Assembly (NCBI GenBank): GCA_019058315.1
Contig: JAHPZH010000002.1
Coordinates: 1 to 64,000, forward strand
Reading direction: 5' to 3'
DNA length: 64,000 nt
Source: Candidatus Helarchaeota archaeon
Lineage (GTDB): Archaea > Asgardarchaeota > Lokiarchaeia > Helarchaeales > RDOG01
Both the position numbers and the translations under genes were made by a program. Under the pieces are notes generated by a model that saw only the letters and a list, made by a program, of their open reading frames with translations, had not been told where the DNA came from and made no database searches. Shown here piece after piece: positions 1-388 of this stretch; the first letter of the stretch is position 1; every line of letters begins with the position of its first letter.

Positions 1-388
1 GCCACGGCAGGTCAGTATGCCCCGAATCCCCCGGGCTACACGCGGGCTGCAATGATGGGTACAATGAGTTGCGATCTTGAAAGGGAAAGCTAATCTCGAA
101 AGCCCACCGTAGTTGGGATCGTGGGCTGTAACTCGCCCACGTGAACATGGAATCCCTAGTAATCGCGTGTCACCATCGCGCGGTGAATACGTCCCTGCTC
201 CTTGCACACACCGCCCGTCGCTGCACAAGCGGTCAAGGGTGTAAAGATTTTCCCCTTCCCGCTGCAGAACTGAATTTGCTTTGGGCGAGGCCCCGTCGTT
301 GATTCGGCGGGTTCGAACCTGAGGTAGGTAAGGGGGCAGAAGTCGTAACAAGGTAGCCGTAGGGGAACCTGCGGCTGGATCACCTCCT
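1..388 (+). rRNA. rrs: 16S rRNA, 3' portion (5' part lies outside the window), interrupted by a 43-nt intron
   Basis: Universal motifs GCACACACCGCCCGTC (204-219), AAGTCGTAACAAGGTAGCCGTAGGGGAACCTGCGGCTGGATCACCTCCT (ends 388); archaeal-type GTCCCTGCTCCTTGCAC. Confidence 0.98.
227..269 (+). other. Archaeal BHB-type intron (ORF-less hairpin, 43 nt) in 16S rRNA helix 44
   Basis: UCG(218-220)/UGA(271-273) exon helix; CUGC(221-224)/GCAG(264-267) 4-bp central helix; 3-nt bulges ACA(225-227) and AAC(268-270); intron stems AGCGG/CCGCU and AAGGG/CCCUU. Cleavage after the 2nd bulge nt restores GCUGCAC|CUGAA. Confidence 0.88.

What the first reader, a model, noticed from the sequence alone, without database searches (positions are those of the whole stretch)
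218..273. 43-nt bulge-helix-bulge intron in 16S helix 44, next to the decoding site (about E. coli 1414/1415)
Seen: an insertion right after GCACACACCGCCCGTCGCTGCAC folds into a complete BHB. It has a 4-bp central helix CUGC/GCAG, two 3-nt bulges ACA and AAC, an exon helix UCG/UGA and intron stems AGCGG/CCGCU and AAGGG/CCCUU. Established: the archaeal splicing endonuclease EndA cuts after the 2nd nt of each bulge. Applying that rule removes 227-269 and gives GCUGCAC|CUGAA, the normal spacing (cf. archaeal GCUCCACCCGAG), which lets CUGC pair with GCAG near 336-339 in h44. Inference: the intron's GCAG competes with the true h44 partner, so the decoding helix may only form after splicing. The archaeal 16S introns I recall are mostly in Thermoproteota and DPANN lineages at other positions (nearest about 1391), so this site in an Asgard-like genome may be new.
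Basis: partly seen in the sequence, partly recalled or inferred. Interest (0 to 1): 0.88.

Follow-up and report, generated by a model that had tools for sequence, protein, structure and literature searches.

The report
Spliced 43-base intron in 16S helix 44
The only 16S ribosomal RNA gene of this Asgard archaeon carries a 43-base tRNA-type (bulge-helix-bulge) intron beside the decoding site. Environmental RNA shows the exact spliced junction, so this is a real but fairly ordinary small archaeal rRNA intron at a site and in a lineage where I found none published.

Summary
Window 1-388 is the 3' end of an archaeal 16S rRNA, and helix 44 carries about 45 extra bases. The fold lies 1.3 kcal/mol above the minimum free energy, and shuffled inserts reproduce it in about 1 in 10,000 trials.

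Cutting after the second base of each bulge removes 227-269. That gives the junction GCTGCAC|CTGAATT, which is exactly what the intron-less same-family relative G001 has.

A same-order relative, G003, has an unrelated 30-base insert at the same site. It has the same architecture and a compensating change in the central helix (CUGC/GCAG versus CUCC/GGAG).

In two wetland metatranscriptome runs, one contig each joins 226 directly to 270. Each contig has 0 mismatches over 90-95 bases of the hypervariable helix. No RNA covers the intron interior.

The genome encodes two EndA paralogs, one lacking the catalytic His, and RtcB.

Among 332 Asgard genomes, and in a scan of 185,579 species for smaller inserts, only G000 and G003 have an insert here. 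Position 1414/1415 is not among the published 16S intron sites.

Caveat: no DNA run from the RNA samples was available, so an intron-less strain is not excluded.

This scan has already noted BHB mini-introns in Asgard 16S, 23S and 5S genes elsewhere. Verdict: a new member of a known kind.

The parts
1..388 (+). 3' part of the only assembled 16S rRNA gene (model positions 1135-1478). The contig starts inside the gene.
   Evidence: Rfam RF01959, 275.6 bits, E 1.9e-78. The only full-length 16S 3' end in G000; the other hit, a 38-nt copy at window 5074-5111, is only a fragment. The 5' part lies on contig C12.
218..220 (+). 5' strand of the outer exon helix h (UCG, E. coli 1406-1408)
   Evidence: Pairs with 271-273 (U-A, C-G, G-U). 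G003 has UCA/UGA at the same place.
221..224 (+). Exon strand of the central 4-bp helix H (CUGC, E. coli 1409-1412). In the mature rRNA it pairs with 336-339.
   Evidence: Four Watson-Crick pairs with 264-267. It pairs with 336-339 in the spliced fold.
225..227 (+). 5' bulge ACA, with the 5' splice site between 226 and 227
   Evidence: Structure. RNA joint from=226. Junction of relative G001.
227..269 (+). 43-nt intron with no ORF. Stems 228-232/259-263 and 235-239/253-257, loop 240-252.
   Evidence: Absent from G001 and from class-level relatives. Zero RNA contig depth at 239-266. Single copy in the genome.
264..267 (+). Intron strand of the central helix H (GCAG). It mimics the native partner at 336-339.
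   Evidence: It covaries with the exon in G003 (GGAG opposite CUCC).
268..270 (+). 3' bulge AAC, with the 3' splice site between 269 and 270
   Evidence: Structure. RNA joint to=270, with no positional ambiguity.
271..273 (+). 3' strand of the outer exon helix h (UGA)
336..339 (+). Native 3'-strand partner (GCAG, E. coli 1488-1491) of 221-224 at the base of helix 44. A340 and A341 correspond to A1492 and A1493.
   Evidence: Rfam alignment. Fold of the spliced helix.

Best explanation
Window 227-269 is an archaeal bulge-helix-bulge (BHB) intron in the 16S rRNA gene, between E. coli positions 1414 and 1415 on the 5' strand of helix 44.

Proposed mechanism: in the precursor, the first four bases of helix 44 (CUGC) pair with a look-alike of their native partner at the intron's 3' end (GCAG). 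This forms the 4-bp central helix, flanked by two 3-nt bulges on opposite strands. The host splicing endonuclease EndA is probably a heterotetramer of a catalytic and a His-less structural paralog. It cuts after the second base of each bulge (226|227 and 269|270). RtcB then joins the exons, and probably circularises the 43-mer. CUGC is freed to pair with 336-339, and the decoding helix forms.

Shown here: the structure, the exact boundaries, patchy presence among relatives, covariation in a second intron, the joined form in RNA, and the presence of the enzymes.

Inferred: which enzyme does the cutting, circularisation of the intron, and any effect on the timing of subunit assembly.
For: 1. All 17 pairs are present. 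The fold lies within 1.3 kcal/mol of the minimum free energy, and shuffles reproduce it at about 1e-4.
2. The same-family relative G001 reads GTCGCTGCAC|CTGAATT. This is the predicted junction with no ambiguity of position.
3. About 15 class-level relatives with both flanks on one contig have a helix 44 that is 46 nt shorter.
4. G003 has a different 30-nt insert at the same site. It has a 3-bp h, a 4-bp H, bulges AUU and AAC, and a both-sides compensatory change in H (G-C to C-G). The same insert appears in an independent metagenome contig, L150.
5. RNA runs X1 and X2 each hold one contig joining 226 to 270. The contigs have depths of 480 and 1124, with 34 and 26 nt on the 5' side and 95 and 90 nt on the 3' side, and 0 mismatches. 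Depth at 239-266 is zero in all four runs laid. The nearest species representative, G001, is only 76% identical over the queried 388 nt (16S 3' end).
6. G000 has two EndA-family genes, both with N- and C-terminal EndA domains. One has Pro/Ser in place of the catalytic His. It also has RtcB.
7. From established ribosome structure (my own knowledge): pairs 1414-1415/1485-1486 lie at the subunit interface (bridge B3). Known helix 44 expansions sit at the tip, as in the other archaea found here.
Against: - No DNA run from the RNA samples was found. The joined RNA could therefore come from a close strain whose gene lacks the intron.
- X1 and X2 may belong to one sampling campaign, and the data are assembled contigs, not raw reads.
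- No unspliced precursor or circular intron was seen.
- The outer exon helix is only 3 bp and includes a G-U pair.
- For G003 the BHB conformer scores -13.3 kcal/mol against a minimum of -23.0 in isolation.
- The insert lies 227 nt from a contig end in a 16S gene that did not assemble in one piece.
Confidence: 0.86

Rival explanations
1. The insert is real in this genome's DNA, but the joined RNA contigs come from a near-identical strain whose 16S gene never had it. Splicing in this organism would then be unproven. The insert might be retained in the rRNA, or the gene might be impaired.
For: No DNA holder of the stretch was found, and the RNA runs are not known to be the source sample. Presence of the intron varies even within the family, since G001 lacks it. 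The 16S gene broke during assembly, which strain mixtures can cause.
Against: The insert has a full BHB whose cut sites give exactly the observed joint. This is the only 16S 3' end in a genome that is 94% complete. The site lies at the subunit interface, where a retained 43-nt hairpin should be harmful (my knowledge). A second intron at the same site keeps the BHB through compensatory change, which implies selection for cleavage.
Confidence: 0.08
2. The 43 nt are a retained expansion segment of helix 44, like eukaryotic ES12 or the Asgard large-subunit expansions, and not an intron.
For: The Rfam model absorbs the extra bases as one 72-nt insertion in the helix 44 loop. Other archaea do have longer helix 44 (Borrarchaeum, Aenigmarchaeota, Vulcanisaeta). 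Asgard large-subunit rRNAs have supersized expansions (PMC7594248).
Against: Those expansions are at the helix tip, whereas this insert is 6 nt from position 1408 at the base. RNA contigs lack the insert and none covers it. Penev et al. found no SSU expansion segments in Lokiarchaeota.
Confidence: 0.04
3. The insert is an assembly artefact near a contig end.
For: It lies 227 nt from the start of contig C5, and the 16S gene is split over two contigs with the middle missing. A 25-mer of this helix 44 was not found in the JGI metagenome contigs.
Against: A chimeric join would not create a complete BHB with cut sites that restore the consensus (about 1e-4 by shuffling). The analogous G003 insert is seen in two independent assemblies.
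Confidence: 0.02

Closest known systems
Small (<50 nt) hairpin-forming BHB introns of 16S rRNA genes in Thermoproteales, Desulfurococcales and Aigarchaeota (Jay & Inskeep 2015, PMC4496867)
   Same: ORF-less hairpin intron under 50 nt inside a conserved 16S region. It is bounded by a bulge-helix-bulge motif, the exon junction restores the consensus, and it is patchily present among relatives.
   Different: The host is an Asgard archaeon rather than a thermophilic crenarchaeon. The site is 1414/1415 in helix 44, whereas the published loci are 374, 548, 722, 781, 803, 901, 907/908, 919, 978, 1093, 1205, 1213 and 1391.
Archaeal tRNA introns at canonical and non-canonical positions, very abundant in wetland Asgard lineages (Valentin-Alvarado et al. 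2024, PMC11291895)
   Same: Same recognition motif and the same presumed enzymes (EndA, RtcB). Intron-rich Asgard lineages; that paper reports 92-95% of tRNA genes with introns.
   Different: The host RNA is 16S rRNA. That paper does not describe rRNA introns.
BHB motifs in the processing stems that flank archaeal 16S and 23S rRNA
   Same: EndA acts on the rRNA precursor and ligation follows.
   Different: Those motifs release and circularise the whole rRNA. Here the motif is internal and removes 43 nt from the mature sequence.
Helix 44 tip expansions (eukaryotic ES12; long helix 44 in Borrarchaeum, Aenigmarchaeota and Vulcanisaeta found here)
   Same: Extra bases within helix 44.
   Different: Those lie at the distal tip and are presumably retained. 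This insert is at the base, has a BHB, and is missing from the RNA.

Membership tests
Archaeal BHB (splicing-endonuclease) intron | Two 3-nt bulges on opposite strands, separated by a 4-bp helix and flanked by helices (hBHBh') | tested here: met
   h is 3 bp, H is 4 bp (all Watson-Crick), h' is 5 bp, and the bulges are ACA and AAC. The fold is 1.3 kcal/mol above the minimum. Shuffles reproduce it at about 1e-4.
Archaeal BHB (splicing-endonuclease) intron | Cutting after the second bulge base on each strand restores the conserved host sequence | tested here: met
   Removal of 227-269 gives GCTGCAC|CTGAATT, identical to intron-less G001. The spliced helix 44 is 76 nt and folds as one helix.
Archaeal BHB (splicing-endonuclease) intron | The intron is absent from mature RNA and the exons are joined | tested here: met
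   Joint 226->270 in RNA contigs of two runs, with 0 mismatches over 90-95 nt of hypervariable flank. No cover of 239-266. Caveat: no DNA from the same samples, and the data are contigs rather than raw reads.
Archaeal BHB (splicing-endonuclease) intron | The host encodes the splicing endonuclease and the RtcB ligase | tested here: met
   Two EndA-family genes (103 and 78 bits for PF01974, both also matching PF02778) and RtcB (582 bits).
Archaeal BHB (splicing-endonuclease) intron | The structure is kept by compensatory change among related introns | tested here: met
   Only two intron types are available. The third pair of H is G-C in the window and C-G in G003. The third pair of h is G-U against A-U. 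The sample is small.
Archaeal BHB (splicing-endonuclease) intron | Cleavage by EndA in vitro, and a circular excised intron | not testable with these tools
   The single read-laying run was used and showed contigs only.
Published 16S hairpin-intron loci (Jay & Inskeep 2015) | Insertion at one of the listed loci (374 to 1391) | tested here: not met
   The site is 1414/1415, which is not on the list. It is the same kind of intron at a new site.
rRNA expansion segment | Retained in the mature rRNA and placed at a helix tip on the ribosome surface | tested here: not met
   Missing from the RNA contigs. Placed at the helix base, 6 nt from position 1408.

The most novel reading that the evidence does not exclude
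The intron acts as a built-in assembly timer. Its 3' end mimics the native partner of bases 1409-1412 and so holds the 5' strand of helix 44. The decoding centre and the interface bridge could then form only after EndA and RtcB have acted, which would tie late small-subunit maturation to the tRNA-splicing machinery. A second, unrelated intron with the same mimicry at the same site in G003 would then reflect selection for this function, and not only tolerance of a selfish insert.
Probability: 0.12. Interest if true: 0.7.

Novelty: new member of a known kind. Interest (0 to 1): 0.48.

Why it matters
- It extends archaeal rRNA splicing to the Asgard lineage and to a new site at the base of the decoding helix, on the subunit interface, with RNA-level support.
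- Together with the published tRNA-intron richness of wetland Asgards, and this scan's unchecked notes of BHB introns in mRNAs and in 5S and 23S genes, it adds to the picture of an unusually broad role for the tRNA-splicing machinery in the closest archaeal relatives of eukaryotes.
- In practical terms, the insert lengthens the 16S gene just downstream of the 1390-1406 primer region. It could mislead length-based quality control, or be modelled as a helix 44 loop expansion, as the Rfam alignment did.

Tried and rejected
1. A scan of the JGI metagenome contigs for a 25-mer of this organism's helix 44 found nothing, so it gave no independent DNA or RNA record of either form.
2. A degenerate pattern for introns of this design in the metagenome contigs gave six hits. 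One (L150) is the G003-type intron. The other five are chance matches in unrelated, apparently coding DNA.
The single-gap scan (N 88-118) cannot see inserts longer than about 42 nt, so the window's own size class was surveyed only within the phylum.
4. I looked for other copies of the intron in the genome, allowing up to 3 mismatches. There were none, so nothing points to a dispersed intron family.
5. I looked for box C/D motifs in the intron by eye and found none, so a guide-RNA cargo was rejected.
6. I compared the 23S gene of G000 with three relatives and found no G000-specific insert of 10 nt or more.
7. ARAGORN found no tRNA genes in the window, so it gave no local view of tRNA introns.
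8. Run X3 (probably DNA) and run X5 gave no cover of 239-336. They say nothing about either form.
9. I searched for the missing middle of the 16S gene in G000. Only the end of C12 matched.

Full report
**What is there.** The window is the start of contig C5 of a 5.8-Mb, 12-contig genome. Bases 1-388 match archaeal SSU rRNA positions 1135-1478 (275.6 bits). The model needs a 72-base insertion where the helix 44 consensus has 24. The 5' part of the same gene (model 1-877) runs into the end of contig C12. The middle is not assembled. Apart from a 38-nt partial copy at window 5074-5111, no second 16S 3' end exists in the genome. The phylum is Asgard: phylum mates in the genome set carry the same helix 44 sequences as records titled Candidatus Borrarchaeum weybense and Candidatus Thorarchaeota. 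An earlier scan note calls the genome Helarchaeota-like. I did not check that.

**The structure.**
- The outer exon helix is 218-220 with 271-273.
- The central helix is 221-224 with 264-267, four Watson-Crick pairs.
- The bulges are 225-227 and 268-270.
- The intron stems are 228-232 with 259-263 and 235-239 with 253-257, closing a 13-nt loop.

The fold scores -16.3 kcal/mol against an unconstrained minimum of -17.6. With the junction held fixed, shuffled inserts gave the central helix plus an intron stem of at least 5 bp in 42 of 500,000 trials.

**Boundaries, tested independently.** The same-family relative G001 has GTCGCTGCAC followed directly by CTGAATT. That is exactly what cutting after the second base of each bulge predicts, and the position cannot slide. 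Class-level relatives have a helix 44 that is 46 nt shorter: 43 nt from the intron and 3 nt elsewhere. The spliced helix is 76 nt and folds as one continuous stem, with C226-G334 and C270-G333 adjacent. By ungapped alignment to the bacterial motif, and from my knowledge of E. coli numbering, the site is 1414/1415. That is six bases after position 1408 and opposite 1485/1486, on the subunit interface.

**A second intron at the same site.** The same-order relative G003 carries a 30-nt insert between CTCCAT and CTGAGTG, with no sequence likeness to the window's intron. It has the same plan:
- outer helix UCA/UGA
- central helix CUCC/GGAG
- bulges AUU and AAC
- an intron stem and a GCCC/GGGC hairpin

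Where the exon differs (G in the window, C in G003), the intron's complementary base differs too. That is a both-sides compensatory change. An independent JGI metagenome contig (L150) holds the identical G003-type gene. In isolation the G003 BHB conformer is well above the minimum free energy (-13.3 against -23.0 kcal/mol), so the enzyme or the folding context would have to select it.

**RNA evidence.** The run search found 18 RNA holders and no good DNA holder. I laid four runs.
- In the wetland metatranscriptome X1, one contig (129 nt, depth 480) covers 193-226 and then 270-364.
- In X2, one contig (116 nt, depth 1124) covers 201-226 and then 270-359.
- Both have no mismatch and no letters in between. 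The joint is listed as 226 to 270, skipping 43, with no positional ambiguity.
- No contig in any run touches 239-266.
- The other joints in the table (219 to 330, and so on) are the conserved flanks of other organisms.

The nearest species representative is only 76% identical over the 388-nt 16S 3' end. The contigs therefore come from this species or a very close one. What is missing is DNA from the same samples, so an intron-less strain cannot be formally excluded. X1 and X2 may also belong to one campaign.

**Enzymes.** G000 encodes two EndA-family proteins of 184 and 201 residues, each with the N- and C-terminal EndA domains. In their alignment the catalytic His of the first (IDHAPF) faces Pro/Ser in the second (VNPSKF). 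From the literature as I know it, this pattern marks the heterotetrameric enzymes with relaxed substrate range, but I did not test that assignment. RtcB is present.

**How common is it.** Pattern scans for helix 44 spacers 6-68 nt longer than normal found inserts at the helix base only in G000 and G003. This held among 161 genomes of the class and 332 of the phylum. The other hits were tip expansions or a bacterial contaminant. A scan of 185,579 species representatives for spacers of 88-118 nt gave 111 hits. Only the G003 contig had a basal insert. That scan cannot see inserts longer than about 42 nt and needs exact flanks. The intron is single copy in G000.

**What is known.** Jay & Inskeep (PMC4496867) list 16S intron loci 374 to 1391, and they recognise a class of hairpin introns under 50 nt. 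Penev et al. found no SSU expansions in Lokiarchaeota. Valentin-Alvarado et al. report introns in 92-95% of tRNA genes in wetland Asgards but describe no rRNA introns. Two further full-text searches found no helix 44 BHB intron. This scan's own notes, unchecked by me, record BHB mini-introns in Asgard 16S, 23S and 5S genes of other genomes, in mRNAs of this genome, and DPANN introns at 1492/1493. So the kind is known, while the site, and the lineage as far as the literature I could search goes, are new.

**Mechanism and its limits.** The unconstrained fold of the precursor pairs 221-225 with the intron's 263-267 and not with 336-339. Enforcing the BHB gives -44.7 kcal/mol and enforcing the native helix base gives -44.5. 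Whether this delays formation of the decoding helix in the cell is untested. I give the timer reading about 12%.

**Verdict.** This is a genuine spliced-type BHB intron (confidence 0.86). It is a new member of a known kind and of moderate interest.

Noticed in passing
window 351-447 and 5074-5169; L170 (G003:C129:13200-18426): A direct repeat of about 95 nt, covering the last 38 nt of 16S plus the trailer, brackets a 4.7-kb islet. The islet holds a 914-aa ORF and a 241-aa ORF. G003 also has a second copy of its 16S 3' end about 4.7 kb downstream. That copy starts earlier, inside the helix 44 tip, and runs off the contig. The DNA between the copies is not homologous to the G000 islet. This suggests repeated, independent integrations that target the 16S 3' end.
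   Followed up: partly
G000:C12:1-900 and window 1: The 16S gene is split over two contig ends, and model positions about 877-1135 are not assembled anywhere in the genome. A long intron or strain variation in the gap is possible.
   Followed up: partly
L165 (G001 23S), L164 (G032 23S), L162 (G000 23S, C5:105496-108654, minus strand): The 23S gene of G000 lies about 105 kb from the 16S on the opposite strand, and has no insert of its own of 10 nt or more. The 23S of G001 has private inserts of 251 nt (just before AAGGTAGCCAAATGCC) and 96 nt. The 23S of G032 has a 30-nt insert. These are probably further rRNA introns in the class.
   Followed up: no
L086 = G003:C129 (DATKTP010000129.1): The public title of this contig names a bacterium (Candidatus Deferrimicrobium sp.), but the contig carries an archaeal 16S gene and the genome is placed in the window's order. 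The record is probably mislabelled.
   Followed up: no
L065/L159, L106, L078, L120, L080, L155-L158: Several archaea have helix 44 lengthened by 15-35 nt at the distal tip: Borrarchaeum, an Asgard family f19, Aenigmarchaeota, unnamed DPANN-like records, and Vulcanisaeta distributa. I did not test whether these are retained or spliced.
   Followed up: no
L152:1228-1782 (+) and L153:1474-2079 (-): There are two EndA paralogs, 27% identical. The second has no His at the catalytic position. This fits a heterotetrameric splicing endonuclease in an intron-rich Asgard genome.
   Followed up: partly
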